A stretch of 64,000 nucleotides of DNA from Amoebophrya sp. A120 (Eukaryota; Protista; Dinoflagellata). Where the stretch lies: positions 10,337,655-10,401,654 of the forward strand of contig CAJINV010000004.1 in assembly GCA_905178155.1 (NCBI GenBank), given 5' to 3'. Shown in pieces: positions 1,377 through 58,400 of the stretch (its first letter is position 1; each line of letters starts with the position of its first letter). The notes under the pieces were generated by a model. The model worked only from the letters and a program-made list of their open reading frames with translations. It was not told the origin of the DNA and searched no databases. Made by a program: the position numbers and the translations under genes.

Positions 1377-4300
1377 TTACGCGGAGTTACAACTATCAGC
1401 CGCACCCTCTCTGTCTCCATCCACTCGCACGCCGTCGCTCCCGAGGCAGACCGGCCGACCAGACGGGCTAATCGTCAGTGCTGTGGACGCCCGGAGCGGG
1501 TCCTCGTCTTCGGGGCTGAGCGACTGTTCGTCCGCAGCAGTTTTTATTGCGGTGTCGGCGCAGAAGGGTTTATTTTCGTGTGGAGTTGTTGTAATTCTTT
1601 GTTCGGACGAGGACCGCCCGTGAGAAGGGAGATCAAATTTATTTGCCACCTTCCCTCCTGGTCCCGGCGTCTGCTCGGCAACGTCTTCGTAACGGTAACG
1701 CCCCGAGTCGTAGTTGTTGTCCTCGAAGAAGAAATCGTCTTCGAACCCGTGCGCGGCACCTCCTGGCACGACGTAATTGTGCTTGGTCTGCAGCGAATTT
1801 TCCCCTCGAACCGGTACGAAGCCATGAGCGCCGTCCCGTATGTCGTGCAGGTCTCGGTCTTCCGCCACCACCCGGGGAGGCGTGCCCGCGACGTTCTGCG
1901 GGGGTAAAACGAGTTCCGGAATGCGGCTGTTACGGGGCTGGAATTTTTTGTCGTTGAGATGAGTTCGCGACGACAAAACGGGGGAGTAATCCACACTGTC
2001 CAAAGGGGAAAAGCTTTTCGCCACTGGAGGGTCTGTGCTCAGGCTGCGCTTGCCGGTGTGAAGAGAACTAGCACCGGATTGCGCGGCCGAGCGACGCAGA
2101 GAATCGGCGATCTGTATGTAGTTTTTGCGGAAGGGAGTTGACCTATTGAGTCGGATCTCGATCTGAATCTGATCATCTGTGACACAGTATGCATGACATA
2201 TATCGTTCGCTGCGTTGCCTTAACAACTTCAGCGAGTAACTCTACAAAGAAACACTGTACTGTGAGGTAAGACGGCAGCTTCATCGGCGAACGCATTGGA
2301 GAGACACTTTGCCGCAAATCTGTCGTGCTCGTTTTGCATAGCGAGTACCGCATCTGTAGGTTGCGCGGCGCGATCGACGAAGACACAACCTGCATTGAAA
2401 AAAAGGTGTTTGTAATTCTTGCAATTGCATGCAAGAAAGGTGAATGTGGATGTGCATCACAGCAATATACAGCTAAATCTTTCTGATAAGTACTGTGACT
2501 GCAGTGTCTGAGTCTGAGAAGAGTATCGTCCTGTACCGCATCCACACTGCCTGGCACAGCTCCGCCGGCAGCTACATTTCCCGTCCCGACCGCCGCCGGC
2601 TGCAAACGACTGCTCGCAGACAGCACACCCTTTTTCGACTTTGGTACGTAGTTGCTGTAGCTGTTTTGCACGGTCTTCGTCGGTCCGCGGGAGGTCTTAT
2701 TCTTGGTGTTGCGCGTCTTGTATAGCGGCGGTGACACGTCAAGCGTGAAATCAGGCTCTGCGCTGCCCTTGAGGTCTGCGTTGCTGCCGTTGGCCTGTCT
2801 TCGTTTTTGTGTTTCGAAAAATGTACACCGTATCAAATGCCTTGCGTTCTTTCGCTGGGGAATCTATCATCGGTCATGCAGTTGCAGGGGAAATAATCAA
2901 CATAAAACGGAAAGAGCACTCCCAAGTTCGTATACATCAGTTCCGAAGGCAAACGCCGGCAGAGGAGAGGATCGCGACGGCGTCAACATGCAAGGATCCT
3001 CGACGCTCGTGGTCGAAACTCCTGCATTCAGTGTCTGTAAAGAACCCAGAAAACTGCTGTCGCACATGGAGATGCAATCCTGCTCCGGAATAATGCTCGA
3101 AGGAACAACTCCAGATTGAGATTCTTGTCTCGCAGAGTCTCCAGCCGTGTCAGGCTTGTCTATTTTCCTCGCCTCATTTGATACAGAAATGACACTGGGT
3201 GACGCAACAAGCGTCAAAATCGTCGTGTCACTGGAGGAACAGGTAGTATGGCCTGCCGGACGCCTGTGCCGGTGCGCGTGCGACGACGTACGAGCAGTCT
3301 TTTGCTTCCTTTATGAGCTGCAAAAGTATCGTACTCGTATAAATGCATTACAAATTTCCTCAGCGTGACAAATAAAATTTGTAATGCTCATTTACCTTAA
3401 GAGAAAGATTTGTAAATGCATGATTGCACTACGAGTACGATACTTTTGCACAGGATATCCTTTGTGCGACGTTGATCTCCTGCTCCCGCTTCGCCTCTGC
3501 TTCGGACGCTTCCAGCCGCTTTGTCAGGAGAGGTACTAAATTCGGGGCGGGCGGCTCCTCGTCACCAGCACAGAATTGGACAGTAATAGTCGGGGGCTCC
3601 ACCAGCGGAGCGACTTTATTGTTTTCCTGGTCTTCCTTCCTTTCCAACTCCGCCGGCTCTACTTGTGCGCCTACAACAGGTCGAACCGCCGACGCCACCG
3701 GAACATCGTCACTCATCGTGCTTGTAGAAGAAGTAGCGTCAGTTATTTGCTTCATCGGTGCCGCGCTCTTCGCAGGAGTTGGCAAGCGGACCATCTCAAG
3801 AACACGCGGCGCCGGGCTCGCCGAATCTTCACAGGATGCTTGTTCGTCCAAGGTTGGCGTTGGAGCGCCGTTGCCCACCGCCACCTGCTGCACCATGCCT
3901 TCGAGACTGTCTTCTACCGGTGCTGTAGCGCGGCTGTCATTTACAATATCCACGTGTTGAAGATGAGCGCAGAACGCGGGTAGTTCTCCTGTTTGCTCTA
4001 GTCCTGCGTCCACGGAGAGTGGCAGAGATTCCTCGTTGCAGACGATCAGATCTGGGTCGAGGGTCGCGGTGATACCATCATCAAGCTCGAGCACTTCCAG
4101 TTCCTGCGTCACTTCCGCCAGCTCCACCACGCGCGTCGTCTCGACTGGTGCGGACTCCACTTCATCACCGTCAACAGCGGCTAGTGCGACGTTCTCGCCG
4201 TCCAGAACTCTGGATCGTCGCGTTGTGGGCGCTCCTTCTACTAGCAGTAACTCCTCAACATGATCAACATCTGTATCAACAACTTCCTGGACTGTCAAGA

Positions 4301-7300
4301 CAAACTCCTGCTCCGATAAAGCTCGGGATGTGTTACTACGATCCGTCTCGAGAAGTACCATCTCGTCGGCGGAGCAACTGGTGGGCGCATGACTAATCTC
4401 CTCGACATTAATGGCCCCCTCGTGCGCCTCCGTTAGTTTTGTGTCATTCGTGCTGCCTTGCAAGCAGTTGCAGAGAGACGAATCTTCGACGAGCGCACCG
4501 TCGACGGGCGGGCTGGTGCCTGGTTTGGGAATAAAAATTGGCGTCCGCTGTAAATGCAGAGAAAAGGCGGTCTACAGAGCTCTGTATACAATTTCATTTC
4601 TTGAAGATGATGCTGCATTCCTGCGCAACAACAGAAAAGCGACATGGATGCGACTGTGGAAGGTCGTCGGGTAAGTACTTACTAAACATGTGTCTCCGGT
4701 TGATTCAATTTTGGACCCCCATACATCAAGGTTCTATACATGTGTAAGCAGCGGCAACAGCTGAGGAAGTTCCGTTGCTTTTCTTGTTCTCCGTCACCAC
4801 TTCTATTTCGCCAGCCTCCCCGGCCGCGGCCACGGGAGACAAAGCCCGGTCCTCGTTGGTTTTATTTCCTTGAGCGACAGCTCCTCCCGTAGCAGGCGGC
4901 GTGCACGGAGTCATGTCTGCTTCGTCGTCGTGCAAGAGCACCAGATCCTCGTCCGACCGGTCTAGGCTACTGCTAGTCAACTCGACGGATTGTCGACGGA
5001 TCTGCTGGTGATGCGGTTCCTCCTCCCCCTCGTCCGCGCTAGAGGAGCTGCTGCAGGAAGACTGCGGCGTGGTATACAGCAGAGCATTGTTCACCGGCGA
5101 GGAGTTGGCCACCGTGCTGGGCGTCACACGGTGATGCGACTGCGGGTCGACGAGAAGATCGGTTTCTTCAGAGCAAACACCCTTGTTCGAAGCGGATTTC
5201 ATCTCGACCAAGTCGCGTTCCTGGGCTTTGTCGTCCTCCTCTTCGCGTGGACGAGATGGAAGAACAGCTGCTGGTGAGGTCACAGTAGTAGACGCTGGGG
5301 ATTTGGTATCTGCTGACGCATCAGCACGCACCTGGTGTCTTTCCACTGATCGCGCTAGCGTGAGGCTACTTTTCTCGCCACTGGCACTGTCTGCTGCCGG
5401 CGTGCGCTCTTCATTTGTTCTACTTCCATGGTCATGATGTGCAGCTGCACCACAGTTCATCTTGCCGGCTTCCTCAGAAAGAACTTTCCTCGAACATGGT
5501 GGAGCAGCTCCTGCGGCACCTGTTCTTGCATCATCGGCTCCACCTGAAGATACTACGTCATCGTCGGGGGATACAGGTTTGTTCTCCACTTCTTTCTCCT
5601 TCTTCTTTGTGTCTGCTTTTCTCGTTGTACTTCGACTTGTGGACGGTTCATCTGCATCTTCGACGTGTTCCCCGAGCGAGATCTCTTCTTCGTCCAGTTT
5701 CTTTTTCATCATCAGAGTCGCTTTGTAGTGCTTCCGGGCGCTGTGCAGAAACGAAAAATCCGACAGCGACCCACTCGCCCTTTTCAAATCCACGTCGAAA
5801 ATTTTGTCGGTCAAGCAGTACAATAAGCGGTCCCCGAGAATGTCGATTCTTTCGATGTGGTTGCGACTCAAGACGACCGGATCCCCGTTATCCTGAGTAA
5901 AAACATCCCCACACCAGAGTCAAGATGGGGATTTTGCAACACAAACCTAGAACTTTTGGGGGTCACGCATCACAAGTCGCAGTCCGTAGTGTAGTGCAGG
6001 TTCGCAAGGCCAGCTGCATCAGAAATCCATCTGCTTATCCTGTTTACAGCATTACAAATTCCAAAACACGACTAAAAATGCCTCTCCTGGCGATGCGCAT
6101 TACAAATGTTCCTGTCATTGCAAATCTGCATGACAACTCTGGTGTGGGGACGTTTTTACTCAGGATACCCGTCGTCGCTCGAAAAGTCGTCGTCATCGAC
6201 AAAATTTTGACCCCCGCCGACCTCGTCCTGATACTTGACCATCGAGCCGTTCGTGCCGGATTGGTTTGAGGAGACAAATGACCGGTGCGTGTTCAGCTTG
6301 TTACTTTCAATCGCAGTAGAACCACTGCTATTTCTTCCATTATCAAACCCCGCCGCGTCCAGGTCCTGTAGCGCAGCGGCGCTGGAGGCATCTTCGGAGG
6401 ACGATGCTGCTGCCTGCGACTGTCGCCGAATTCCTCCGCTGTTTCTTGGATGCACAATCTGCTGCTCGCCGTAGACTTCGTTGCGAATGTAGAGGTGCGA
6501 GCCCTCTTCGTAGTGGCAAGAAGAGTACATGCAATTACCCGCCGACGTGCTGGTTTTCACCTTGGTCCCGTGCAAGTAGGCGCTGCGCGAGGGGCTCGCG
6601 GCATGCGGCGTGGAGGACTGATGTTCCACCTGCGACGGAGTTTGCTGGTTTCTCGTGGTGTCCTCATCCCCTGCGGTTGGCGATGGTTGTGGTTCTCGTA
6701 GTTCTGCAGTAACAACACCTTCCACACGATTCTCTACCTCCGGCCGGCCCAAATTTTTTGGCACTGCATCTTTCGGCTGCGGCGTATCCGGAGCGACGAC
6801 CTCGGCGAGAACGATCTTTATTTCCTTTTCGGCCCCGTTCGGACAGGATTCGGCAGAAGCAAACGCAGCGTGGTTGTTCATGTTCTTCTCTCCTGCGCGA
6901 TTCGCCTTCGGCTCTGCCGCTTCTTGCTCGGGACTCAGCAGCTGGCCCTCGTCCGGGCTCCGCAGTTCCTCGGGAGACGGAGAAAGCCCGTGCTGCGGCA
7001 CGAGGGTCATCATCTCGCCCGTGGGGCCGCGAAGGTCCGGAGAGAGCGTGCAGTAGTGATCATTTTCGTCCGCCGGCGAAACGGGCGAACACTGCCGCGG
7101 CAGGTCATGCTGCTCGGCGGCAATGTCGTCGTGCGCAAGAACCGCGGGGTTTGGTGGAACGTGGATGTGCTGGTGATCCTGTTTGAGAGATGAGAGGACC
7201 TCGCTTTGTTCCGCTTCACAGGCCGAAGGAACTGCGGGGGGTCCAATGGCATGCTGCGCATCAGGACCTCGACCTGGCGCAGTAGTTTGATGAGGTTCAT

Positions 7301-10300
7301 TGTCATTGTCTTCATCCTTGCCATCGCCCGCAAGACAAACATCTTCGCAGCCATCAGCAGTTTCAACTTTCGCGGGCCGTGCAGCAAGATCCGTGGTCAG
7401 ATCGACTACATCAGCAGCAGCTGTATCAACGTCCACCCCTTCATCTTCAAAGGTCACACGGTCTGGCGACGGCGGGGTGATTTTGATTGTATCCCAGTTT
7501 TTCCCGCCTGTCATCCCACTTCCGACCACCTTGGGCGTGGGCAGCTGCCCCCGGTCGGTATCGCTGTTCGAGTTTTCGGATTCGTGCGACCCTTCCTCCA
7601 AAGTTTCCATTCTTTGGTAGCGACCGAGTCCCGGCGCGCGGAGCCCGAGATTCTTCAAGCCCCCGTAGTCGGACCGGAAGGGGAGGAAACTAGCGGTCGA
7701 ACAGCGGGTCCAATCTAGAATTTCGCCCGGGAGGTCTTCTGGAGCAGCAGCGTCCTCGTCTGTCGTTGCGCCACCAGGCTCGGAAACATTGCAAAGAGGC
7801 GCGTCGAGCTCGGGATGATGATTGTCGCTCTTGGACTCCTGCTCTGTCACGCACACAACGTCGCAGGGCGAAGGTGTGATCTCCATCTCGGCAATAAAGC
7901 TCCTTTCGTGTGGCAACAAAACCTGCTCTTTTGCTGGATCCGTTTCTGTTTGCGGCTCCTCTCCACCCCCGTGTCCGTTAACTACATAGTCCTCGTCGAT
8001 CATCACATCACTGGCAGTTTCAGCTTTCTCAACGTCATCGACGCACGGAAATGGAACAGAAGTGGACGGTAGGACTACCTCTTTGTCCGCATCATGAATG
8101 TCGACATCCGCGCTGCTACGGGGCTGACTGTGGGTGCTAAAGTGAAAATCAAGCTCAACCCCTCCTCCCGACAACACTTGGTCCTCCGCGTAGCGAGGGG
8201 TCCGGGAAGGATTCCTGCGCAGCATCTTTCCGGTCCGGGTTATGAAGATCTTTTGTCGCGACGGTTCTGCACCAGATGCCCTCTGCCCGTCTGTCGTGCC
8301 CGCTCCTTCTTCCTCCAGCAACGTGTCTATCTGGTGTTGGTCTTCGTTAATATTTGACGTGGACTCCCGGCTGTTTCTGTTGCTACTGCTCCGCTCAACG
8401 ACTCGAGCGGAACTGCCGGTGCTGGACGAGGTAGCAGCATGGCCATCGGAGGACTGGCCGACGCTCGGTCTGCTCGAGGCGGCACTGTAACCGGTACCCG
8501 AAGAATCTTCACTGGTATTTGTTGACCTTCGACGCACCATCTTGTTGGTTCCTGAGGACGACGATCCATTCGTCGCGGCCGAAAAAGGTCGTGCCTTTAA
8601 GTCTTCCGTTGTACTGGCCGTGGCAACTACATCGACGGATGATACAGTGGCATTCCCGGGTACCTCCATAGCGTTCACGGCAGGTCGGTCTTCGTCATGC
8701 GTCTTGCTTGCCCCGAAATTATCCAGTTTCGAAGCCACTGCGACAGAAGCCGCACCGCTCTGGCTTTTGCTTTTCCGGCCGCTCCTTTTCTTCGTCTTAG
8801 AACTACGAGAAGCGCGGTGGATTTTAGTGTCCACCTGGGTACTAGTCGTGCTGTTTTCCGCCAGAGCCCCCCTGTCCTGCGGCAAACACGGCAGCGTCGC
8901 AGCGCACTTGCTTCTCGACGATTTCGCCCTGCCGTCGCTGCTACTGGACGAGCTAGAGGAGCCACCTCCAGACGAGGACGACTGTGCAAATGGGCTCTCC
9001 AGGTCCCGCACGGATTCGGAGGTGACCGAGCGCTCACTACTCGCACAGGAAGAATTCGTGTCTGCATCGATGAGCTGCACAAAACCCGTGGTAGTGGAGG
9101 CACTTATGGGGTTCTCAAACGTTACATTCTCAACTGTTACATGAATTTGTCATGCAAAAACACCATCATCATCCTCACGATCAAGAAGCTGCTCCGCGTG
9201 ACAAGTTTGCGAAGGGCTAAGCCGCGCCTAAATCTGCGCCAAACTTGTAATGCAAAAGGCGCAATCTTCCTCCTTTCACTTTTGCCAGTCTTGCATTACA
9301 AATTCATGTAACAGTTGAGAATGTAACAATTGAGAGTCCCATAGCGCTGCTGCTTTCGTTCGAGCTCGTTCCGTCCTCCTCGCCAGACGAACGGCTTGCC
9401 GCGTAGGAATTTTGCGGCGGCGTGAAACAGCGCTGCTCGTGTAGTTGTTCCTCGTCATCTACATGTTCCTCGCAGGAGGAAGCAGACGGAGGGAAGCTAC
9501 GGGCAGCTGCTTCGACATTCCCAGCAGTGAATGCGCAGGAGGTGGTACTAGTACTACTTCCGGCCGAACGGTGGTGGTAGCTTTGTTCATCGTCTCTCTT
9601 GCTTTTTCGAGGAACACCCTCCGATGGTAGCAGGGGCTGGCGTCCTTCCTTGTTATCCTCATCGCGACTCCCCGAACCAGTCGCTTGTCCGCCAGCTGTA
9701 CTCGTCCTAGCACAGCCCGTGCTACTGCCTGCGCTGCAGCTGCTCGAAGATGAACTCGACGAAGCAGACGTTTTCCCCGAGAGGCCCACCTCGCACCCCT
9801 TGTAGTGGTGCCAGGAGGAGGAGACACTTCTTGTCAGAACTACATTCTGCTTGCTTTTCTTTCGCCCGGAAACAGAGCAAAAAGTGGTTATCGGCTCCAA
9901 ATGCAGCTCCTCCGCGGATTCCATGCGGTCGTTGAAGGTCGTAGAAGAAAGCCGAAGGGGTTGCGGGTGCTTTGGAGGACCCGCTCCACGTAGTTGTTCG
10001 TGGTGGTCTTTAGTCGTGCCGGCCTCTGAAGAAAAGGGGCCACAGCCTTGCGACCGGCGCAGGGAGGTGCTGGCGCAACCTTGTTCTTGCGCGTGCCCTT
10101 GTGGTCCTGCAAACAGTTCCTGCTGGGCGGCGCTCCGAATCGACGTAGTGCAAGAACTTCTAGACGCCTGCGATGTAGTATTTGAAGACCTGTGTCGTTG
10201 CAATAGTCTTTTCTCGTCGACGATATCCAGTGGCTCTAAATCTTTCCGCGCAATCAAGAACGATTCGGTCGAGCAGTGCCGTGGCAGATGCAGGGAGCGT

Positions 10301-13300
10301 TGCTGGCGCTGTACCGCTGGAGGAGCAAGTGCAACATCTCCAAGTCCGGCTGTTTTGTTTGCTTCGATGCTCTGCTGCAAGACAAGTGCTCCACGCGGTA
10401 TCAGTTTGGAGTGCCGCAGGTTCTCGTCCGCAGATGGCTCGTGCTTGTCGTGGCGCAGTTGAGAAGAACATGCTGCTGTTGCGGCCGCTGACGATTGCAC
10501 ATGTTGAGACGCTGTCGCTTCGGCAGGACAATGATCGGTCGAAAAACGAACGACAGAGCTGGGTCTCCCTGATATCCTCGGTTCGTCGACACAACTTGCG
10601 GGATCGCTACCAATCATTCCCGGCACAGCCACCTCTACTAGTGCCGCTCTTGTCGTGCTCACGCGTGGTTCGGTGCGGCGTGAAGTTGTAGACTGGTCCA
10701 ACAGCTGCAAGCAACTCTCGTCATTATTTCCCGTTGTACCATCGTCCAGTACCTCGTCAAAGTTCTGATCGCCCATCAGCGCATCGTATTCGGCAGCAGC
10801 GCCGGCAATGTCTGCCTCTGCGTAGCGGAAGTTATTGGAGCCGCAGCGGAGTAGTGGGAACCGAATCTCGTCGTGGCCGGGCAGGTTGGTCTCATCGACA
10901 TCAAGGATATCGTCCTGCTCCTCTTCTATGTGATTGTCGTGCGCCGCAGCAAGAACGCCTGCGGCAGCAGTGCCCCCAGAAGTCTCATCGTTCGTCGGTG
11001 CTGACGTCAGTCGCGGTTCTTTCACCTGTCCTTCGATTTGTTCGTGGTCTACCAGTGCGACCTGTTGGTTCTTTTTCGGCGTGCTGCTATCGGGACCACG
11101 GAGGTCGTTGGCAGCAACTTCGTCCTCGATGAAATCCACGTTTTCCAAAGCCAGCGAGTGCTTATCAACTGTAAAAGTGTCTGGGTCTGGAAACTTGTGA
11201 TGCTGGTTGGCGTATCATGAGGCGGCCACAAGTGCTGGCTCAGCATGACAAGTTTCTGAGCTTCGAGGTGTTGCCTATTCTGCATGACAAACTGCGTTTC
11301 TGCATGAATGAAAAACGGGGCTCTTGCGTAACGTGCATGACAGACTTTGGGGTCATGCTGGCAGAGCATGACAGACCTTCCATTCTTCCAGACCTAGACA
11401 TTTTTACAATCCATAGTGCTCCAAATCATGCAAAAACTCCTCTGTCGCGGTGAGATTCACGTTGGTGATTGTGTCCATCTCGGAACAAGGTAGAACTTGT
11501 GGCACGTGGACAGCTCCTTCTGCGGTATTTTTGCTTCTGCAGCTGCTCTGCTGTTGTACGAGCGATTCTACTTGTTTGCGAGGGGGCGTCGAGTATTCAT
11601 GTTGCTGCACGTCGATAGGTGTACTAGCTCCGGGAACAACAAGAGAATTTCTCTCGGCAGGCTCCCTCAGCCCTTCGACGTGCGAATGTCCATTCCTGCT
11701 GCCCCTGTGCGACTTCGTCTTCCCTCCCGCACTAGACGCTGATGACTCGGCGGAAATCCGGCTAAGCTCCGTTTCCAGCAGAGCGATGCTGCTGTGCTCC
11801 TTATCAAATGCAAAAGTGTCTGGGTCTGCAAGGTTGGAACCTGTGATGCTATTTTCGGACTCTAAAAAAATCTGTATTGCATGACCAGCAAGAGGAGTCT
11901 AGTTTGTGCTACGCGGGGAGGGCGTTTGTCATGCGAAGTAGGCATCAGGAAGCCGTCTAAAAATCTGTGATGTTAGGCCGTGCATTACAGACAACCTGGG
12001 TCATGCAAAACATGCATGAAAAATTTCAGAATCTTCCAGACCCAGACACTTTCGCATTTGATACTCCTGTGCGTCGTGCACTTTCAACGCAAAGCTGGCG
12101 TCTTCCTGCCACAGCTCGCTCGACGGACGGAGAAACTTCGCCAAACTCGCCACGGACGCGCTGTGCAGCGGCCGCTCCGTGCTGTTGACGCTCGACCCAC
12201 AGAGGGTCGGCGATTGCTCAGGATCGCTGTTGTACGCCTGTTGCGGTGACGCAAGCATGATGTTTTTACCCGTGAAGGAGGTCGAGACGGTCGCTGGGAG
12301 GGTGACACGCTCCTTCTTCAGCTCAGGGGCGGGAACCAGGCATCTGCGGAGGATTTCGTTTTTTTATTCTTTTCATGCTGATTTTCATTTTTTTTTTTCG
12401 TGGACGTGGAATAAAGATTTTTTCGTTCGATTGTGTTTTTCGATCATGTCGACCAAAAGAATTCATGTGAGTCGTAAAGACGACCCAAATTAATACAGCA
12501 AACTATCGTCCTTTTCATTGCGAAAAGTCTCGATCATATCGCGATCCAAAACGGCGCCGGGGGCTCTTCTGGGCGCCGGCGGTAGTAGCTGCCCATCAAG
12601 TAGCTCTGCTTCCGAAACCGGACCACTTTCTCCGCAACGGCGCGATTTTGGTGCCACAATTATCGGAGTCCTCATCGCGCTCCTTCTCGCTTTAATTCTC
12701 GTCCCGTGCTTGGGCACCCCGCATGCATCGCTTCCGTGGTCCTCTTCCTCTCCGGTGTTGTACTTATCCAGCATGGCCTCCATGTACTTGACAAACATGG
12801 ATGCCTGGTTCGCCAGCTGAGAGTCAATCTTCAACAGCATTTCCCTCACCCCATCGTCTTCGATCGACGTTGTACTGGCGGAGGCTCCTGCACAACTCGC
12901 ACTGCTGCTCGAGGAGGTGGAAGCGCAGCTGCTACGGTTCGCTGTACAACTGAAGGTGCTCTTTCTGTTCGACGTGAGAAACTGGGACTGCGATGTAGTT
13001 GTTGACTGATTGTTCTTAGAAGTAGTACTGATGTATCCCGATGTTGAAGACCCTGCTCGCGAGAAGAGGGCACTACTCCGCTGCCCTTGTCCGTCGTGTT
13101 CAAAATCTTCACTTCGATCGTCCGGCGACAGGTTATCCAAACAACTACGGTTGTAGGCCAACATCGTGTGATGCTTGTTCGGCACCCTCGCATCGGTGGG
13201 ATCAGCGGCCAGCACCCTGGCAGCTCTTTGTCGAAGATTTTTGCGCACTGACATCCGCGTGGGACTGAGAGCGGGGTCGTCCCCATCATGGCAGGTGGTG

Positions 13301-13743
13301 TCTTGGTCCTCGTGTCTTCTAGTACCTGCGAGGAAAGCGGGCGCACTTCTATCAGTACAGGAAGAACGGCCAACACCGCGCCGCTCACCTTCGTCGATGT
13401 CTTGCAACAGCGTCGGCAGGAGCATCACTTTCTTTTTCACTTCTCCTCCGGAAGATGGGCTAGTTGTAGAAGTTCTTGCACCACCAGCAGCTGCACCAGC
13501 AACTCCTACTTTCGTGGGCGACGCAATGCTCAGACTCCTCCTCGCAACCGCGGGCGCACGTGGGGGAGACCCAGACGAGGATATACTTATTGCCGTTGGC
13601 ATGGGGCTCGTCGTGCGGACACGGCGGCGAGAACTTGCAGTACTAGCCGAGGAAAATAAGCACTGGGATTGTCGAAGGTCGGCTTGGGAACAACCGGCAA
13701 CGCACGCCGCTCCACCGTCATCCCCCGGCAGTCGCTCCTGCAT
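1377..13743 (-). CDS. Very large multi-exon low-complexity (Ser/Thr/Glu/Ala-rich) hypothetical protein with 5 introners plus ordinary introns
   Basis: ORFs 12001-12258, 11404-11610, 9304-11148, 6156-9080 and 4726-5871 join in frame when introner plus one TSD is removed (e.g. SDDG|DPVVLSR, SSSA|STTTGFVQLID, LEH|SLALENVD); likewise 3429-4463 with 2897-3217. Links through ~12345-12500, ~4520-4730 and below 2900, and the start codon, are uncertain. Confidence 0.55.
3312..3457. mobile_element. Introner family D (146 bp), TSD TCCTT
   Basis: TIR tatgagctgcaaaagtatcgtactcgta / tacgagtacgatacttttgcacaggata; removal restores frame. Confidence 0.9.
5889..6167. mobile_element. Introner family B (279 bp), TSD CCCGT
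   Basis: TIR tatcctgagtaaaaacatccccacaccagagt / actctggtgtggggacgtttttactcaggata; frame restored. Confidence 0.92.
8078..9533. repeat. Source copy of 1456-bp dispersed duplication (second copy 27118-28573)
   Basis: Same sequence and ORF translations at offset 19040, including the family C introner. Confidence 0.92.
9105..9343. mobile_element. Introner family C (239 bp), TSD GCACT/GCGCT
   Basis: TIR tatggggttctcaaacgttacattctcaactgttacatgaattt / aaattcatgtaacagttgagaatgtaacaattgagagtcccata; frame restored. Confidence 0.92.
11163..11415. mobile_element. Introner family A (253 bp), TSD GTGCT
   Basis: TIR tatcaactgtaaaagtgtctgggtctggaa / ttccagacctagacatttttacaatccata; frame restored. Confidence 0.92.
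11802..12063. mobile_element. Introner family A (262 bp), TSD CTCCT
   Basis: TIR tatcaaatgcaaaagtgtctgggtctg / cagacccagacactttcgcatttgata; frame restored. Confidence 0.92.
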
Positions 13744-21455: not shown

Positions 21456-21480
21456 GCTTTAGGGGTAGCTGTAATGGCGC

Positions 21481-49400: not shown

Positions 49401-52400
49401 GCTGCTGCCCTTGTCTTCTTGCAAGACAAATGTGATTTGTGGCCTCAAATCAGCAACACAAATTTGCGGAAGCATACCTTTTCAATATGGGGAGGGGGGA
49501 TTTTCCTTCCGATACTTCGGACTCGTTCTTCAGCATCTTCCACTGCGGCGCGCACCTCGCGCGCTCGATCCGCTTGTACACGCCGAGGTCCCCGCGGGAA
49601 GTCTTTTCCGCGATGGTCATCAGCTCGTCGGGCGGTCTGTCCGGATCCGTTTCCTTCACGATCTGCTTGCAGCCTCCCACCGGGTACAGCCGGCACATCG
49701 CGGGCGAGACGAACTCCATCCGCCGGCACAGAGTTTGGATCTGACACAGCGTCGCACACTGGGTCGGGGTGGTGTATCGGCCGTCGTAGAACTGATACGC
49801 CTCCGACCGGTCGGCGCACCTGGTTTTCGCCTCCGAACTCAAGGGCACCATCAACACCTCCTTTGCGCCCGCCTTCGGGCACTGTGGGTTCGCGAGCGCG
49901 GGCGGGAAGGTCTGTTGGTGGATGCCGCCGGCCGGCGTCACTTCCACCTCGTCGTCTTCGTCGGGAGCCGGAGTTATTGTACTATTATCGACAGTACTAC
50001 TGTTCGACGACGCGTCGGGCGTCTGAAACTGCTGGGCTCTTCTCGCCGCGCCGAAAAGCAGCTCGTTTCCGGTATTTGCAATCGTTCTACTTGACAGACG
50101 CTTCGACGCCTCTCGCAAACTGTCCCGCATCAGGTTCTTCAAATGGGCCCTCTCACTGTCAACGGTCATTTGGAGCAGGGCCAGGCGCGTCTTTTTCTGA
50201 GGCTGTTGCCCTGCTCCTGGCCTCCTGTGAAACTCCACGACCTCCTCCCGCCGTTCGCCTATCTGCAACGTGATGATGTCGTCTTTGTCTAGCCGCTCGC
50301 TGTCCATTTCCGGTGCGGTGAGCTTCGTCCCGTCGATGGGCGAGAGTGCGCGTGGCGTCGGGAGCCAGAGGAAATCGGAACCCGGACGCAGAAACTTCCC
50401 CCCGTCCGCAAACCCGGCTTATCCTGAGTAAAAACGTACCCACACCATAGTCAAGATGGGGAATCGGCTAGACAAATCCACAAGTTTTGGCTGTTTCGCA
50501 TGACAAATTTGGACGCGTAGTGTAGTGCTGTTTGAGATAGTTCAGTAGCATTACAGATCTAGTCTCTCATGCTGCTTGTAGCATGACAAATTTCAAAACA
50601 CCATTAGAAAATGCTTCTCATGGGGCTCCGCATGAGAAACATTTTAAGCATGCAGATTTGCATGACAACTATGGTGTGGGTACGTTTTTACTCAGGATAC
50701 GGCTTGCCGGCACATCATGTCTGCGGCGTTGTCGTCCGCTTCGTTCCCACAGACACTGCCCCAAAACGCGCGGCTCAGATCGCCCGAGCGCCGCTGGAAC
50801 CGGGCGATTTGCGCCTCCCCGATACTGCTGTCTTGGAACGCCCCCGCGCCCGCGTTGTTTTGGCCGTGCGCGTTGGCCGACGCGTCCGGGAGGAAGTTGG
50901 TCGTGCTCGCGAGCCGCACCGACATCGAGTGCTCCGTGCGGCACTCCATGCGAAGGGTTTCGACCTCTTCGCGGAGCTCCTTCCGTTTGTTCACGGGGAA
51001 AAGCTGGAACCCGTTGATGCACCTAACGCAGTGCACCGCGCCGTGTTCTGGGCACTTCTCCCCCGTCGCGGCGAAGCCTGTCATGGTGGTACTCCCGGTG
51101 CTGGGGTCACTGTAGCTCGGGCAGGCGCACTGCTTCGGCGTGCAGGTTTTGGACACCAGGTTGTAGAAAAAGCCTGTTTCGCACGTCGTCGAGTTCGTTG
51201 TCACGTTGCTCGTCATCACCGGCGCCGCGCACCGCTCTTCAAACTCGGGCAAGTTAGAGCAGAGCGTGCCGACGGCGGGCTTGCCGAATTCGCACGTGCA
51301 CAAGCCCTCGACCTTGCAGGTTTTGGCGTTTGGCCCCAAGCCCTTCTCCCACGCAGAGGGGCCGGCAAAGGGACCGATGGAGGCAAAAAGCCGACACTGC
51401 TTCGCGGTCGCCTCGTAATCAAAAGCGACGCAAGAATCCGCGGCCGCGTCACAGGCAGCGGCGCAGGCAACGCCGTTTTGCTGTAATGTTGAATGATTGG
51501 AGTATAAATTGCATGATGTCGGTAATACTTCACAAACACAAACACGTGTGAAGCTTGATGACGTATCGAAAAACAAAAATTGTACAGAAAGGAAAACTAC
51601 AACAGAAGGAAAACTAAAATCCCCTACTACTTACCTCTGTCGACGTGGCCCCCGGTGCTGTAAACGCGGGTCCGCAGTCCTCCGTTGCGCACCGGTCGGC
51701 CACCATCGTTCCGACTTCGCACTCGTACGCTCGCGCGCTGCTGTCGTCCTTCTGCAAACCACCCGGATCGCCCAAAATCTGCACGTCCGAGAGCATGGCG
51801 TCCCCCTTTCCGTTGTTCACGACCGAGACTTTCAAGCCCCGCAGGTTGTTGCAGCTGATCACATCGACCACCTCCGGACTGGTCGCGCTAGCTGGTGAGA
51901 TCGCGTTTGAGATTTCTTCACTTGCTCGCGTCTTGCACTCTTGCTCGTCGACTTCGACGGAAAAATCGCCCGTGTCAGACAGTTCCGCTGCCGTGAACCG
52001 CACCTGCACACTCGCTACCCGCACCGGCTTCGGAAACGTCATACCCCACTTGCCGCCGACGGGTAACTGCACCTGCGTCGCCCGGTCGTCGTCCACCGCG
52101 GACGGCTTGCCCGCGGGGATGTCGGCGCCCGAGACCGATTCGACGCCGGGGGTCAAGCGGTAGCCGTCGATTAAGGGTGCGCGCTTCACCGCACGGTACA
52201 ATCCGTAGGACATCGGCTGGTCGTCGGTTAAAACAGCATCCGGCTCATACGCCGGCTCCACGGTTCTCGACACCAACTCACACGTCCCTTGCTCGAACGG
52301 CTTTTTGCTCCTCGGGTCGCGGGAAATCAAAAAGTAATCGCACCACCGATTGTTCAAGGCGCAGTGGGCCGCACAGGCCTTCGACGCCTCGTACCCGCTC

Positions 52401-55400
52401 GTGTCGCTGATCGCCGCGCGGACCAGATTTTGAAACCGGCTCTCGTCCCCGAGGCGAAACACGTACTTTCCCGCGGTCAGTGCCAAGTCACCACTAGCGG
52501 ACTTCTCCTTCATCACTAAAGGCAGCCCGCAGTGCACCTTCCTCCCCGCCCAGGGGCCATCCGCGCGGCGGCAAGTGCCGGCGACGCCGCCGTGGCAGAA
52601 GAGGTCCGTGCAGTCTGCGTCGGACACGGCGGCCGCGTACTCAATGCTCCCATCTGGGCACAGACACATGCCGCCGTTGCGATTCGGCGTCGCGGCCTGC
52701 TCCGCGACGTTTCCGCCGTTCAATATCGCGATCCTGTCGTCCAGCTTGAGCAGCCCGGTGTATCAAATGCAAAAATGTCTGGGTCTGGAAGAATGCAACT
52801 TGTCATGCTGAATCTGAAGCTTGCAAAAATTTGTATTGCATGATTTCCAAAAGATGTCCACTTTTGACCAGTTTGACAGGGAGTTTCTCATGCAGGATAG
52901 GCATGATGGACACCTCACAGCGATTATCATGCTAGGTGCTGCATTCCAGGCCCCGTGGGTCATGGAAAAACTGCATCACAAATCTTGCATTCTTCCAGAC
53001 CAAGTCCAAGACATTGTTGCATTTGATACGGTGTCGGCATTCACCACGTTCTCCTCCAATTTGACTTCGTAAACGGACACCCGCCGCCCCGGCACCCCCG
53101 CCGGCGTGCCGCAGGGGAATCTGGGGTCCTCGCCCTTCGCCGTGCAGGGGCCGCACTGGGAATCCGGCTTTCGCAAGCTGTCCATCGAGTCCGGCAGGTA
53201 AAACAAGCTGCAGAAACAGTCACTCGCCCCAACGGCGAAGTAATGGGTCGGCGCCGGTCCGACATCCGCACCGGTCGCGTTCGCGGTCAGATTCTTTGCT
53301 TCCCGATCGGCGTTTTCCGCGGTGATCAACGTCTGCTTCGCGGCAATCAAACACCACTCCCGGCACTCCGCGACACTCGCACTCTCCCCCACCGGGTAGC
53401 TGGTCGCGCGCGTCCAGGGGGTCGTTTCCGGGTTGGCGAGCAAGTCCGAGTCGAAGCAGCCCATGTGCTTCTGCGCGGGTTCGATACCCAAAGTCCCTCC
53501 TGCTTTCGTGGTGACGATATCCGCCTTCATGCAGAGCACAAAGTCGTCGAATCTCGTTGAGGTCGCGTAGGAACTGGCTTGCAAAATGCAGTGTCTTTTG
53601 TTCACGCTGTACTCGAAGGACTCGCAATCTTTGTCCCGCTTTTCACATTCCGCGGTGCACTCCTCGATGCCGACGTTCTGGATCGTGTTTGCGTCGTTCG
53701 TGACCAAGTCGATGTGCTGGAAGAACCCGAGCTTCCGTCTGTACCCGGTGGGGCAAATCAAGTCCGCCGTCCGGGAAAATCTCGGGACGAGGGCGGGGAA
53801 TTCGGGTGTGCTCCCCGCAAGTTTCGCGGCCCCCTCCCGCCAAAGTGGCATGGGCGCGCTCAGCAACGCTTTCTCGAAAAGATCCTTGATCGGCACGGAC
53901 TCCGGGGTCAAGCTCTGCGGCGTCGAAATCCGCAAAAACGCTGCGATCCCGCCCGGATCAGATAAAGTCGCGGGCACTGCGCGCACGGTCGCTGCGGAGT
54001 AGAAATCGCAATTCCCGCCGATCTTGTTGTACACAAAACCACCGCACGTCGGTATTAAAAGGAAAAGTCCCCCCTCCCCATATCAAAACGAAACTTCTGA
54101 CGCTGGATTTGAGTGCACAAATCAGCTTTGTACTGCAGGAAAGCATTGCAGTCAGGCCCCCAGGCTAGGTAGGGGCGCACGCGTCTAGTTGTTCAGCATG
54201 GCAAGCGGCTCCCCTTTAGGCCCAACAGCATGACAAATCGCCTCCATAATGGGGCGGAAGCTTCTGCCCTTGCCTTCTTGCAAGACAAATGTGATTTGTG
54301 ACCTCAAATCAGCAACACAAATTTTCGGAAACATGCCTTTTCAATATGGGGAGGGGGGATTTTTCCTCTCGATAGTCGGCACCGCGTCGTCGCACAGACT
54401 GCGACACATCGTGGAGGAGAGTCGCACCGTTATCATTTGTAAAAACGTCCCCACCCCATAGTTGTCACGCAATTCTGCATGCCAAAAAAGTTTCTCATGC
54501 GGAGCCCGATGAGAAGCATTTGCTGTTCGTGTTTTGGAATTTGTGATGCTGGAATCAGCATGCTATGCTAGATCTGTGATGCTTCTGAACCTAGCAAAAA
54601 AGGATTACACTACGAGGACAAACTTGTCATGCCAAACAACCAAAGCTGGTTGATTTGCCTAGCAGATTTCCCCTCTTGACTCTGGTGTGGGGACGTTTTT
54701 ACTCAGGATAACCGTTTCCGTCGTGTCGTCCGTTGCCGTGCTGTTCACCATGTTCCCGCTCTCCCCGATCCGGACCAGTTGCCGCTCCGTGACGATCGCG
54801 AAATCGGGGAGGATTTTGCCCTCCAGCACCATGCCACTCGCAACCCGAACGTACCCGTCTGTGTAGAGTGCGGTGGGGAGCAACGACCGGTAATGCGCAT
54901 ACGTGCCCGGGGTCGTTTTCGACGGAGCTAACGTCGCGGTCAAAATGCACCCCTCGGTCAACGACGAAGGGTCGACGAGCACCCCCGCGCACCAGTTCGT
55001 CGCCAAGCACTGCTCGGAGCAAGTGTCCGCTGTGAAGTTCCCGGGAACCGTTTGCTTCACAGACGGTTGGTCGGCGGTGCCGGTCAAGTCCGCCCCGTCC
55101 GTCCACAGTTCTTCGGTCAAAACCCGGTTAAAGCTCGTGCTGTACACGGCAATCCGATCGGTCGCGCCGCAGTACTCGGCGTCCAGGTTGCACCCTTCGA
55201 TATCGTACAGCCCTTTGCTGCACTCGACATCGTCCACTTTGGTGAGTTCCGCGGTGGCATTTTTGTCGCCGCACCTGCAGGAAACCGCGTCGCCACCGTA
55301 GAGCCCGAAGAAGGGAAAGGAGCCGCACATGCCGGAGCAGGTTTCCTGGGTCAGTTTGGAAACCAGCACCATCGCCGGGAAATTCGCGGCTTGCACCGTT

Positions 55401-58400
55401 TTATGGACTGCAAAAGTATCGTGCTCGTATAAATGCATTACAAATTTCCTCAGCATGAGAAATAAAATTTGTAATGCTGATTTACCTTAACAAAGGGATT
55501 TGTAATGCATGATATCCATGCGAGTACGATACTTTTGCACAGGATACGTTTGAAAGGAGGACTTCGCGGGTTTGCTGTAGTCCGGATTTTTCTCCGACTG
55601 GGTGGTCGTCGGGCCTATGCATTGCAAAAGTATCGTACTAGTGGAAATAGCATTACAAATTTTTCCAGAAGCAAAAATGGAATTTCTAATGCTGAATTCG
55701 CTAGGAACCCAGTAGATCTGTCATGCATGACTGCAATCCATACGAGTACGATACTTTTGCACAGGATAGGGCCCATCGCGTAGCAACCCAGCAGTTCTGC
55801 TTGCTTTTTCACCGCGGTGACGACAGGGGCTTGGTCTGACTGTGATTTGCTGGCTTGTTCCTCGTCTGCGAATTCACTCTCCAGCAATGCCGAATCCGTT
55901 GTTGTATCCGGTCGGGTACCACTAGCACTGCCACTTTCACCTTCCTCCTCCGATCCAAACCAAGACTTTCGCGAACTTTCAAACAGCGTCACAGCAGGCG
56001 GGGCATAATTGGCAGTAGCACCACCACCAGCAGGCTCTTCTTGTCCTTCCAGTGGCGTGGAGTCGGACAAGGCGAAGACAAAAACTCGGACCGGCTCAAA
56101 GACCGCGCCAGAGGAGGACTCTTTCCCCGACGCGACGGAAGACAACCCGACCCCGCTACTCGACTCGGGGAACGAACAGGCTTTCGGATATGGCGTTCTC
56201 AAATGTTACATTCTCAACTGTTACATGGATTTGTAATGCAAGAACAGCAACAGTGAAAGTGGCAACGTTGCAACTTTCGCATCACAGATTTTCCACAGAG
56301 TATCATGGTGTTTAGCCCTTCGAAAATTTGTCATGCTAAGCACCTTGATCAAGTGCAGGGCAATTATGTCAATTTTGCATGACAAATCCATGTAACAGTT
56401 GAGAATGTAACGTTTGAGAATCCCATATCGGATCGATACCACTTTGAAACCGTCCCAGCCTCACCTGCTGGTACTGCTTGGTGTCCGTCACAAATTCGCC
56501 GTTGAAAAAGTGCACGCCTTTGTCCTCATCCGTGGTGCACAGAACTTCCCCCTTCTCCGCATTTTTGCTCGCGGTCGGGAAACTTTTCCCGCCGCTGTGC
56601 AGCCAGTTCACCGCAGTCGGCACGACGGACTTCTTCACATTTTCGATGCAAGCCGCACTGTCCACGAAGTAGTCGCCGACGTCGCAAGGATCGGCCGTTT
56701 GCCTGTCCGTTTGCTTAGACGTGGCACTTCTACTACTTTTCTGGGCAAAAATCGCCTGTTGCTGTGCGGCTTTCTGTTTCGCGGCTAGCGTTTGGTCGTT
56801 GTTTTTCAAGCTGATCTCCCGGCCACTAGACGTGTCGGTCAGCAAATCCCGCAGGGACTTCCCTTGATCCTCGCTACGGAGGAACAACAGCGGGCCAAGC
56901 TTCCCGTTCTGCTCGACCTGCAGTGCCTTGATCGCAAAGTTGTATCCTGGATGGATTTTCGATCTTTTTCCAATCGTTTTCGGGCCGTACTCGTCCCACG
57001 CAGCACCGGCGTAGCGGAAGTCCTTTTCGTCATCCAAGATCTCCAGCGCCAGGTGCGGCCCTTGCGGCTGCACGAAGACCTGCACGGGGTGAAACCGGCT
57101 ATCGAACTGCTTCTTGTCCGCCTGGAAATCCGCCACCCCGGATGCGATCGACTGCAAGCCCACGCCCTCGCCGGACCGCGGCATCAAAGAGAGTTTATCA
57201 TTAGATTGACCAGTAGAAGAGGATGTTGTAGGTAGGTTCTGCAAAGCTGTACCGGTAGCTTGCTGCGTCTGGGAGTAGACTGTGTTGCCAAGGACGGTGG
57301 TAGGGATTTGGAAGTGATTCATCTTCGAAGTAGTCCCCTTTATTTCCTCCTGTTCCAACAGCGATACCACCGTCTGTGTCTGTTTCGTCGGCAGAAGACC
57401 TGCTTGTTGCGCTAGATCCCCTAGTTCGCTTCTCCATAACCCGATCCGCATTTTATTTTCCGTTGTGTACCCGTTGAAAACCAATCTGTCCAGGGGCGGC
57501 GCGTGCCTAACATCCGGGGTTTGCGCGAAGGCGTAAGGTGCGCCGGTCATTTGGTCCACTTGGATAGTAGAGTACACGTTGAACACGTCTGCGGTCGGGA
57601 CCGAAAGTTTTCCGGCAGACACCTCCCCGGCCATGAACCCGTATCAACTGCAACAGTGTCTGGGTCTGGAAGATTGCGAGACTTCTCATGCTAGTCTAGT
57701 ATGACTCTGCACTCTGTATTGCGTGGCCACCAAGAGGTCCTCTTGCCTATCATGCAAAAGCGCAGTTTCTCATGCGAAATACGCAGCACAGAAACACGAA
57801 AAAACTTGTCGTGCTTGGCGGCGCATTACAGAGCACTTTATTGCTCACGGACTTGCATCACAAGTTTTCAGACCCAGACATATTTGCACTCCATAACCCG
57901 TTTGTTTTCACCACGTTCCCGTTCAAAGCCACGTTTCCTAGGGGTGCTTGCACTAACTCGGACAGCGATTTGGAGGCGACAGACCGCGCCCCGCCCGGGG
58001 AGGTCGGTTTTTGCTTCTGGTCCTTCTTCAAATCGAAACTGACGGTGTTTGCGTTCATTGAGAGAATCACCGTAGACGCGGGCTTGAAATAAGCGTCTGT
58101 GACGAATATGACTTGCAAAAATGTCTGGGTCTGGAAGATTGATAAAACTTGTCATGCTAAAACCAAATCATGCAAAAATCTGTGCTGCATGACTGCCAAA
58201 AGCTGTCCTCTTTCGATCAAGTTGGGTGAGAGTTTCTCATGCAGGAGAGGCATGACAGAGACCTCACAGACTCTGTCATGCTAGGTCCTGCATTCCAAAC
58301 CTCATGGGGCATGGAGAATATGCATGAGCAGTTTGCATTCTTCCAGACCCAGACAGATTTGCATTTGATAACGAAGTTGCCACTGCCAAAGTCCGTCGCC

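What the first reader, a model, noticed from the sequence alone, without database searches (positions are those of the whole stretch)
3312..58370. About 31 MITE-like elements in at least six families behave as precise non-canonical introns
Seen: each element has TIRs ending TAT...ATA (one CAT), a 5-bp TSD of arbitrary sequence and a position inside an ORF. Deleting the element plus exactly 5 bp restored the frame at all junctions I translated. No shift within the TSD gives GT-AG; a few allow GC-AG or GA-AG, and many (sense-strand TSD CCTGT, TCACG, AAACG, CACCG, TTCGT) allow no AG acceptor. Copies occur in both orientations relative to the host. Established: IR/DR-bounded non-canonical introners are described in Amoebophrya with an unresolved splicing mechanism. 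Inference: excision is directed by the TIR hairpin and TSD rather than by U1/U2 consensus sites, or the elements are excised at DNA level as ciliate IESs are.
Basis: partly seen in the sequence, partly recalled or inferred. Interest (0 to 1): 0.9.

Follow-up and report, generated by a model that had tools for sequence, protein, structure and literature searches.

The report
Amoebophrya introners hide one splice register
These hairpin-shaped mobile elements in genes of the marine parasite Amoebophrya are an already described kind of intron that transcript contigs lack exactly, and mismatched flanking repeats suggest they are likely all cut one base before their first TAT and four bases after their last ATA, which would point to a loosened spliceosome rather than a signal-free or DNA-level process.

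Summary
Observation confirmed; the class is known. The window is Amoebophrya sp. A120, and the 31 TAT…ATA elements with 5-bp target duplications are its published introner elements (Farhat 2021). Spliced contigs lack exactly element+5 nt at 15 of 17 elements in the laid stretches; 2 gave no signal. DNA-like contigs keep the elements, so IES-style excision is unsupported. NCBI's A120 protein already equals the spliced model of one host gene. New here: imperfect duplications bracket the cut. Three loci allow shifts 0–1 and three need shift ≥1, so the one shared register is N|TAT…ATA-NNNN|. That keeps T+2 and A+3, like the native GTATT donors, and needs neither G+1 nor AG. The 5′ TAT[CG] is better conserved than its 3′ mirror (0/36 vs 7/36; 1/114 vs 10/114 in another assembly). 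Two elements with little predicted hairpin are still removed exactly. Best reading: a U1-less, relaxed spliceosome (0.6) over a hairpin-guided non-spliceosomal route (0.27). One pair of extra elements deviates by 3 nt, unexplained. The scan noted a similar element in Prorocentrum (e1-7693921, not checked here).

The parts
3312..3457 (-). Introner, family B; inferred intron = start-4..end+1 (same rule for all below)
5889..6167 (-). Introner, family C
9105..9343 (-). Introner, family D, imperfect TSD; identical twin of 28145
11163..11415 (-). Introner, family A
   Evidence: joint skips 258 = element+5 in X1, X2
11802..12063 (-). Introner, family A
   Evidence: laid but no joint listed
16065..16322 (-).
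   Evidence: joint skips 263 in 4 of 4 runs
16358..16632 (-). Extra degenerate element; TSD 4/5; shift 0-1; retained form also seen
   Evidence: joint skips 280 in 4 of 4 runs; X3 record 8 retains it at depth 6
17666..17928 (-). Introner, family A, TSD 3/5; shift 0-1
   Evidence: joint skips 268 in 4 of 4 runs
18735..18889 (-). Introner, family B
   Evidence: joint skips 160 in 4 of 4 runs
18961..19212 (-). Introner, family A; sense 3' end ATG instead of ATA
   Evidence: joint skips 257 in 4 of 4 runs
25165..26497 (-). Extra 1333-bp element, TAC…GTA termini, 44-bp TIR, perfect 5-bp TSD; two internal ORFs scanned, no Pfam hit
   Evidence: X1 piece begins exactly at 26498 (one-sided)
28145..28383 (-). 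Introner, family D, TSD 4/5; shift 0-2
   Evidence: X1 record 2 pieces adjacent, 244 nt removed
30915..31208 (-). Introner, family A-like, TSD 3/5
   Evidence: laid but no RNA piece or joint shown; spanned by X5 DNA-like contig
32888..33225 (-). Extra degenerate element; TSD 3/5; shift 1-2
   Evidence: X1 piece ends at 32883 (one-sided; piece has 1 other letter, place not shown)
33403..33756 (-). Extra degenerate element, perfect TSD; with 32888 removes 699 nt, not 702
37804..38091 (-). Introner, family B-like, TSD 3/5; shift 1-4
   Evidence: X1 piece ends 37799 with 0 other letters; four-element sum 1097 exact
38450..38665 (-). Introner, group F
   Evidence: four-element sum 1097 exact
39117..39378 (-). 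Introner, family A
   Evidence: four-element sum 1097 exact
39428..39738 (-). Introner, family E
   Evidence: piece starts 39739; sum exact
41248..41729 (-). Introner, family B, 482 bp
   Evidence: piece ends 41242; six-element sum 2448 exact
41771..42031 (-). Introner, family A
   Evidence: six-element sum 2448 exact
42310..43302 (-). Introner, family A, with nested ~730-bp repeat (42495-43225); TSD 4/5
   Evidence: six-element sum exact
43903..44111 (-). Introner, group F
   Evidence: six-element sum exact
44165..44428 (-). Introner, family A, TSD 4/5
   Evidence: six-element sum exact; register not shown
44469..44677 (-). Introner, group F, TSD 4/5; shift 1-5
   Evidence: X1 piece starts 44679 with 0 other letters
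48360..48622 (-). Introner, family A
49191..49514 (-). Introner, family E
50420..50699 (-). Introner, family C
52761..53028 (-). Introner, family A
54053..54374 (-). Introner, family E
54431..54710 (-). Introner, family C (opposite orientation to 5889 and 50420)
55402..55546 (-). Introner, family B
55616..55768 (-). Introner, family B
56189..56427 (-). Introner, family D
57642..57895 (-). Introner, family A
58107..58370 (-). Introner, family A
12344..12496 (-). Canonical GT-AG intron, donor GTATT
   Evidence: joint in X1, X2
16883..17073 (-). Canonical GT-AG intron, donor GTATT
   Evidence: joint in 4 of 4 runs
18050..18224 (-). Canonical GT-AG intron, donor GTATT
   Evidence: joint in 4 of 4 runs
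14564..19634 (-). Host gene, pentapeptide-repeat protein P0001 (1159 aa, named Amoebophrya sp. A120), with 5 introners and 2 GT-AG introns
36614..61738 (-). Host coding region(s) for large PAN-domain protein(s) carrying 21 of the 31 elements

Best explanation
These are the MITE-derived introner elements of Amoebophrya sp. A120: transcript contigs lack each tested element plus 5 nt while DNA-like contigs keep it, and they are likely removed from pre-mRNA by a relaxed major spliceosome at one inferred register, N|TAT…ATA-NNNN|. Steps: (1) A non-autonomous TIR element inserts in an exon in either orientation and duplicates 5 bp (anatomy shown; the transposase was not found). (2) Because both ends read TAT inward, either orientation puts TAT one base after the cut, so the TIR supplies positions +2 to +4 of a donor like the native GTATT while +1 is any base (register inferred from seven imperfect duplications; donor role inferred). 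(3) The 3′ cut falls 4 nt past the terminal ATA with no AG, so 4 nt of the upstream duplicate and 1 nt of the downstream one rebuild the original site and the frame (net removal shown; register inferred). (4) End-to-end pairing likely helps young copies but is not needed in decayed ones (folding predicted). (5) The catalyst would be the U2/U4/U5/U6 spliceosome reported for A120, which lacks a detected U1 snRNA and snRNP27 (from Farhat 2021; not tested here).
For: Identity: one exon is 100% identical to an NCBI/EukProt protein named Amoebophrya sp. A120, and that 1159-aa protein equals the translation of the 7-intron model. RNA-level removal: two-sided joints of exactly element+5 for 11163, 17666, 18735, 18961 and for the extra 16065 and 16358. 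Adjacent pieces show it for 28145, and the sums 1097 (4 elements) and 2448 (6 elements) are exact in one X1 contig. The same contigs skip GT-AG introns, and X3 has depth 0 over an unexpressed stretch, so they behave as cDNA. Register: shifts 0-1 at 17666, 16065 and 16358 (4 of 4 runs each); 0-2 at 28145; 1-4 at 37804; 1-5 at 44469; 1-2 at 32888. Only shift 1 fits all seven. At shift 1, +2 is T in 32 of 32, against at most 5 of 32 at other shifts; 3 of 3 RNA-confirmed GT-AG donors start GTATT. All 9 predominant A120 non-canonical pairs in Farhat Table S4 have T at +2. Asymmetry: the sense 5′ end departs from TA[TC][CG] in 0 of 36 and the 3′ mirror in 7 of 36 (Fisher p=0.011). In another assembly the counts are 1 of 114 vs 10 of 114 (p=0.0099), and 5 vs 6 when strand is arbitrary. 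The +1 base is unbiased there (A30 C29 G33 T22) and AG is not enriched (7 of 114).
Against: No single element pins shift 1; it is the only value shared, assuming one register. The three lower bounds are one-sided piece ends from run X1 alone. All RNA evidence is assembled contigs from 2 samples of 1 study, whose RNA status is a guess by the tool; raw RNA runs X9 and X10 laid only 10 and 2 reads. Nothing here shows lariats, a branch point or snRNP contact, and no fixed-distance branch motif emerged. Losing both G+1 and the AG removes the terminal contacts that spliceosomes normally use (own knowledge). T+2 at shift 1 follows from the TAT terminus itself, so it is not independent of the register. 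The 32888/33403 pair removes 699 nt, not 702. Unconfirmed canonical donors in the window include GTAAGT (2) and GTACTT (1), so native +4 is not always T. The asymmetry for TAT alone is not significant (0 vs 4 of 114, p=0.12), and host strand was called from open frames, with 126 of 240 elements dropped as unassigned.
Confidence: 0.6

Rival explanations
1. A separate, structure-guided RNA processing route, as proposed for euglenid nonconventional introns, cuts the TIR stem with a 1-nt 5′ and a 4-nt 3′ overhang and ligates the exons without the canonical spliceosome.
For: No G+1 or AG is needed. The cut is fixed relative to the stem. 21 of the 30 independent original elements have predicted first-pair probability ≥0.7, and most fold far below shuffles. 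Euglenid introns with TIR pairing and TSD-like repeats are released as circles (PMC11282704 section 6).
Against: 16065 and 16358 are removed exactly in 4 of 4 runs with predicted end pairing of 0.18 and 0.03, and 37804 with 0.35. A symmetric stem signal does not predict the 5′-over-3′ conservation seen twice. The 5′ motif matches the native donor.
Confidence: 0.27
2. The junctions are reverse-transcriptase template-switch artefacts across hairpins flanked by direct repeats (artefact class recalled, not from a call), and the real mRNA keeps the elements.
For: All evidence is cDNA-derived, and hairpin plus direct repeat is the setting for this artefact.
Against: Retention would put stops in all three frames for 36 of 36 elements inside frames of up to 2719 codons. 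The spliced form dominates (41 vs 6). Weak-hairpin, 3/5-repeat elements are skipped exactly and in one compatible register.
Confidence: 0.04
3. The elements are excised from DNA, as ciliate IESs are, in the expressed copy of the genome.
For: TA-like ends and precise loss; only 15 of 578 joint rows were shown, and contigs drop rare variants.
Against: X5 record 9 (7504 bp, 30459-37962, 0 other letters, depth 45) passes unbroken through three elements, and exon-TIR junctions stand at single-copy depth 41-47. RNA-like run X3 holds a retained form with no matching DNA background. IES loss leaves a TA (own knowledge), whereas these leave an arbitrary 5-mer.
Confidence: 0.03
4. Removal is spliceosomal, but the register differs between families or slides within the duplication (shift 0 in some, ≥2 in others).
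For: Upper and lower bounds come from different elements. Published family calls differ ('co-opt both', 'co-opt 5′ carry 3′', 'carry 5′ co-opt 3′'). One pair deviates by 3 nt.
Against: Seven independent constraints share exactly one value. Shift 0 would give donors of TA. Elements with similar GAAAAA termini give both an upper (16065) and a lower (44469) bound, though BLAST does not link them.
Confidence: 0.06

Closest known systems
Amoebophrya sp. A120 introner elements / non-canonical introns (Farhat et al. 2021, PMC7789003)
   Same: Same organism; TAT-starting inverted repeats followed by an A run, 3-5-nt direct repeats, ~240-nt mean size, RNA-seq-supported, many families.
   Different: The paper reports no clear dinucleotide signature and calls splice sites variable relative to the hairpin, with border position unknown (Fig. 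3 legend). Here imperfect duplications point to one register with a T+2 donor. The figures themselves (Fig. 3, S19-S25) could not be seen.
A120 introner families in Gozashti et al. 2025 (PMC12130899)
   Same: 58 A120 families, mostly 'TIR DNA, Unknown' superfamily, many non-canonical sites (22 of 58 rows read).
   Different: Automated calls give mixed mechanisms and TSD lengths of 2-5. Here the TSD is 5 bp in 23 of 31 (window) and 201 of 252 (other assembly), with none of 4 or ≥6.
Fritillaria borealis non-canonical introns (PMC13326754; review PMC11282704)
   Same: MITE-derived, TIR/TSD-bearing introns removed by a modified spliceosome.
   Different: Fritillaria keeps U1 and has preferred ends (AG-AC, AG-AT), with duplicated U2AF. 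Here +1 and both 3′ bases are free, and Farhat lists single U2AF genes and no U1.
Euglenid nonconventional introns (PMC6221363 abstract; review PMC11282704)
   Same: Stem joins the intron ends, TSD-like repeats, no GT-AG.
   Different: The euglenid stem pairs +4..6 with -8..-6, with Y|R borders and circular release. Here the pairing is +2 with -5, borders are unbiased, and the 5′ end is under stronger constraint.
Micromonas/Aureococcus/Symbiodinium TIR introners (PMC9860276)
   Same: DNA-transposon origin; one TSD copy lost on splicing.
   Different: They carry or co-opt canonical GY and AG. These need neither, so they can insert anywhere in either orientation.

Membership tests
Amoebophrya A120 introner elements (Farhat 2021) | Located in the A120 genome | tested here: met
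   100% identity to a protein named Amoebophrya sp. A120; spliced model equals it
Amoebophrya A120 introner elements (Farhat 2021) | Terminal inverted repeats starting TAT, then an A run | tested here: met
   TAT in 32 of 32 sense 5′ ends, A-rich at +12 to +15
Amoebophrya A120 introner elements (Farhat 2021) | 3-5-nt direct repeats overlapping the exon/intron borders | tested here: met
   5-bp repeats, 23 perfect and 8 imperfect of 31
Amoebophrya A120 introner elements (Farhat 2021) | Absent from transcripts, non-GT-AG ends | tested here: met
   15 of 17 laid elements removed, 2 uninformative; 0 of 32 can be GT-AG
Amoebophrya A120 introner elements (Farhat 2021) | Repeated families | tested here: met
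   67-89% identity among copies; 130 loci in another assembly
MITE (non-autonomous TIR DNA transposon) | TIRs, fixed-length TSD, short, non-coding | tested here: met
   5-bp exact repeat in 201 of 252, none of 4 or ≥6; stops in all frames
MITE (non-autonomous TIR DNA transposon) | Cognate autonomous transposase, or an empty orthologous site | tested here: inconclusive
   No Pfam transposase in 34 window ORF pieces; no genome held; no orthologous flank among 130 loci
U2-type spliceosomal intron | GT/GC at +1,+2 and AG at the 3′ end | tested here: not met
   At shift 1: GT in 12 of 32, AG in 1 of 32, both in 0; T+2 in 32 of 32
U2-type spliceosomal intron | Branch point and lariat intermediate; dependence on U2/U5/U6 | not testable with these tools
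   Contigs only; the motif scan found no fixed-distance branch motif
Euglenid-type nonconventional intron | Stable stem joining both ends | tested here: inconclusive
   Predicted for most copies, but weak in RNA-proven 16065, 16358 and 37804
Euglenid-type nonconventional intron | Y|R borders and +4..6/-8..-6 pairing | tested here: not met
   Border bases unbiased; pairing register +2/-5
Euglenid-type nonconventional intron | Release as full-length circles | not testable with these tools
   No usable raw reads
Ciliate IES (DNA elimination) | Element-free DNA in the expressed genome | tested here: not met
   X5 contigs retain elements at single-copy depth; rare alleles not excluded

The most novel reading that the evidence does not exclude
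All TAT…ATA introners of A120 (about 30,000 by Farhat's count) share one splice register, N|UAU…AUA-NNNN|. The organism runs a spliceosome that has dropped both G+1 and the 3′ AG, reads only U+2/A+3 and the next two bases at the donor, and sets the 3′ cut by counting four bases from the transposon end, so any insertion in any orientation is born as a perfect intron.
Probability: 0.45. Interest if true: 0.78.

Novelty: already known. Interest (0 to 1): 0.48.

Why it matters
The elements and their removal are published, so the finding as stated is a rediscovery. What is added is a way to close the gap that the paper left open. Mismatched target duplications act as rulers, and seven of them agree on one cut position. 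If that holds genome-wide, the reported 'no splice signature' in A120 is an alignment ambiguity hiding a simple rule: U at +2 is kept, G+1 and AG are dispensable. That rule gives direct tests (lariat mapping, U6 and Prp8 sequence changes, minigene mutants) of how far spliceosome chemistry can be relaxed, and it would let annotators place tens of thousands of junctions correctly.

Tried and rejected
No whole genome was held, so no genome-wide count, transposase search or snRNA search was possible. No RNA holder was on record; X1-X4 are guessed RNA. In one search the joint table was filled by repeat noise from X5 (15 of 578 rows shown), so junctions there were read from piece coordinates. 11802 and 30915 lay in laid stretches but gave no joint, which is no evidence either way. 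Deletions of +3, +4, +6 or +7 were rejected (in the other assembly ≥900 nt open in 75 of 240 for +5 vs 25-30). A 6-bp TSD reading of 42310 was rejected because the six-element sum fits +5. The subterminal motif GCAT[GCT]AC and its mirror are ~22-fold denser in elements than exons (96 in 11.3 kb vs 10 in 26.6 kb) but sit at varied distances from the 3′ end and are missing on the sense strand of 12 of 36, so they were not accepted as a branch point; a transposase-binding repeat is likelier. Selection for G at +1 or for AG was not seen. Rfam gave 0 hits. The 130 metagenome loci gave no orthologous empty site. The scan's notes by place and by sequence were empty. Literature searches listed no paper fixing the A120 register; Roy et al. 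2023 Curr Biol was not held, and Farhat's figures and files 13-14 of the Gozashti 2025 supplement were not seen, so prior statement there is not excluded.

Full report
1. Observation. A scan for TIR pairs with [TC]AT…AT[AG] ends found 23 elements with a perfect abutting 5-bp repeat, against 0 in each of 10 shuffles. Eight more have imperfect repeats, among them 42310-43302, found by BLAST. 9105 and 28145 lie in a 100% identical 1456-bp duplication, which looks real: run X5 has depth 86 there against 44 on the flanks. So there are 30 independent insertions. Deleting each element plus 5 bp joins minus-strand frames of 2194, 1600, 1092 and 2719 codons; other lengths do not. Retention gives stops in all frames for 36 of 36. 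No shift gives GT-AG in 0 of 32. Copies of one family lie in both orientations.

2. What organism and what genes. One exon matched a single protein at 100%, named Amoebophrya sp. A120 by NCBI. Its 1159 residues equal my model with five introners and two GT-AG introns removed, so the public annotation already treats these as introns. The hosts are a pentapeptide-repeat protein, large PAN-domain protein(s) and low-complexity unknowns (8 of 34 pieces had any Pfam row).

3. RNA versus DNA. Two stretches were laid: 26001-45800 and 10900-19800, holding 17 of the 31. In one search, joints skip exactly element+5 at 11163 (2 runs) and at 17666, 18735 and 18961 (4 of 4 runs). In one search, X1 record 2 joins across 28145 (244 nt). 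Record 4 lacks 1097 nt over four elements and 2448 nt over six, both equal to the sums of element+5; for these ten only the sums are shown. 11802 and 30915 gave nothing. The same contigs skip three GT-AG introns, and X3 has no depth over 12088-14166, so they behave as cDNA, although the tool only guesses RNA, and they are 2 samples of 1 study. X3 also holds the unspliced 16358 element at depth 6 against 41. X5, of unknown kind and possibly the assembly's own source, keeps the elements: a 7504-bp contig crosses three without a difference. DNA-level excision is therefore unsupported, rare alleles aside.

4. The cut position. Let k be the number of intron bases before the sense-strand TAT. Mismatches between the two duplicates limit k. 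17666 allows 0-1. 28145 allows 0-2. Piece ends give 1-4 for 37804, 1-5 for 44469 and 1-2 for the extra element 32888. These three are one-sided and from X1 only; the tool's leftmost convention was checked at perfect repeats. The only shared value is k=1: intron = N-TAT…ATA-NNNN. No single element proves it. One result does not fit: the pair 32888/33403 removes 699 nt where 702 is expected, with the frame kept either way. An AG three bases early at 33402 would explain it, but the middle piece was not shown.

5. What the register implies. At k=1 the donor reads N-T-A-T-[CG] in 32 of 32, with G at +1 in 12 and AG at the end in 1. The three RNA-confirmed canonical donors read GTATT; unconfirmed ones include GTAAGT and GTACTT. 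All nine predominant A120 non-canonical pairs in Farhat's Table S4 have T second, though aligner placement may shape that table. Since elements insert both ways, a purely symmetric signal should decay equally at both ends. It does not: departures from the 4-base end motif are 0 of 36 at the sense 5′ end and 7 of 36 at the 3′ end (p=0.011). I repeated this on 130 loci from another assembly: 259 hits, 252 unique, with an exact 5-bp repeat in 201. Of 240 with ≥3/5 repeat, 114 could be given a host strand by open frames and 126 were dropped. Departures were 1 vs 10 (p=0.0099) and 5 vs 6 on an arbitrary strand; for TAT alone 0 vs 4 (p=0.12). There, +1 is unbiased and GT-AG is possible in 3 of 114, all at k=1. 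Folding predicts a strong stem for most copies, but 16065 and 16358 have first-pair probabilities of 0.18 and 0.03 and are still removed exactly.

6. Mechanism. Shown: element anatomy, exact net loss in transcript contigs, retention in DNA-like contigs, and 5′-biased conservation. Inferred: one register; that the TIR's TAT acts as donor positions +2 to +4; that the 3′ cut is set four bases past ATA; and that the spliceosome is the catalyst. Farhat reports U2, U4, U5 and U6 and most proteins in A120, with no U1 snRNA and no snRNP27. Loss of SNRNP27K or METTL16 goes with +4U donors in yeasts (PMC10581693, abstract only), which fits but is a lead. I put the relaxed spliceosome at 0.6, a stem-guided non-spliceosomal route at 0.27, variable registers at 0.06, RT artefact at 0.04 and DNA excision at 0.03. 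No branch point was found; the invariant A at -7 is a guess to test.

7. Known or new. Every testable defining feature of the A120 introner elements is met, so the class is already known. As U2 introns they fail the terminal-dinucleotide test; as euglenid-type introns they fail the border and register test. The single register is not in what I could read. Farhat's Fig. 3 legend calls the border unknown, 22 of 58 A120 rows in Gozashti 2025 give mixed calls, and five searches listed nothing more. Figures and Roy 2023 were not seen.

8. Papers, as seen. PMC7789003: abstract, passages, sections 10-12, supplement part 1 and searched rows, no figures. PMC12130899: passages and supplement rows. PMC11282704: passages and section 6. 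PMC12005148, PMC11453091, PMC9860276: passages. PMC13326754: abstract and first part of the discussion; no mention of Amoebophrya. PMC6221363 and PMC10581693: abstracts. PMC13149111: term search, 0 hits. The scan's note e1-7693921 reports a like case in Prorocentrum; I did not check it and it did not change my reading.

9. Verdict. Real, precise, RNA-level and published as a class; interest 0.48 for the register, which makes the open mechanism question directly testable.

Noticed in passing
window 8078-9533 and 27118-28573: 100% identical 1456-bp duplication of coding sequence with one introner, placed in two different genes; X5 depth 86 vs 44 suggests it is real; the 28145 copy is transcribed and spliced.
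   Followed up: partly
window 25165-26497: 1333-bp element with TAC…GTA ends, 44-bp TIR (97.7%), perfect 5-bp TSD and internal repeats; X1 piece starts exactly at its edge, so it is probably spliced too; no Pfam hit in two internal ORFs.
   Followed up: partly
window 32888-33756: Two degenerate elements whose joint removal is 699 nt instead of 702; possible use of a nearby AG.
   Followed up: partly
window 42495-43225 and 21480-22199: A ~730-bp GC-rich repeat nested in introner 42310, 73% alike over 292 bp to an intergenic copy; the whole 998 nt is still removed.
   Followed up: partly
window 29605-29894 and about 30660-30883: Two further candidate degenerate TAT-started elements without RNA support.
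   Followed up: no
window 22873-24171 (-): 433-codon ORF that by eye resembles the C-terminal part of a non-LTR retrotransposon reverse transcriptase (recalled likeness; no Pfam hit).
   Followed up: no
window 30015-30488: Element with 63-bp arms at 92% complementarity and different termini from the introners.
   Followed up: no
window 63592-63970: Cluster of palindromic tandem units.
   Followed up: no
window 45815-47681: 689-N gap flanked by a 589-bp inverted duplicate at 99.8%, likely an assembly artefact inside the PAN-domain coding region.
   Followed up: no
window 16323-16352: A 30-nt exon between two degenerate introners, included in 4 of 4 runs.
   Followed up: yes
window 37804, 42310, 44469: In three imperfect duplications the inferred +1 base is A where the other copy has G, so G+1 seems to be lost freely; not repeated in the other assembly (1 mismatch at that position).
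   Followed up: partly
L001-L130: One metagenome assembly holds the same family-A termini densely (259 elements in 237 kb), up to 95% alike to window copies.
   Followed up: partly
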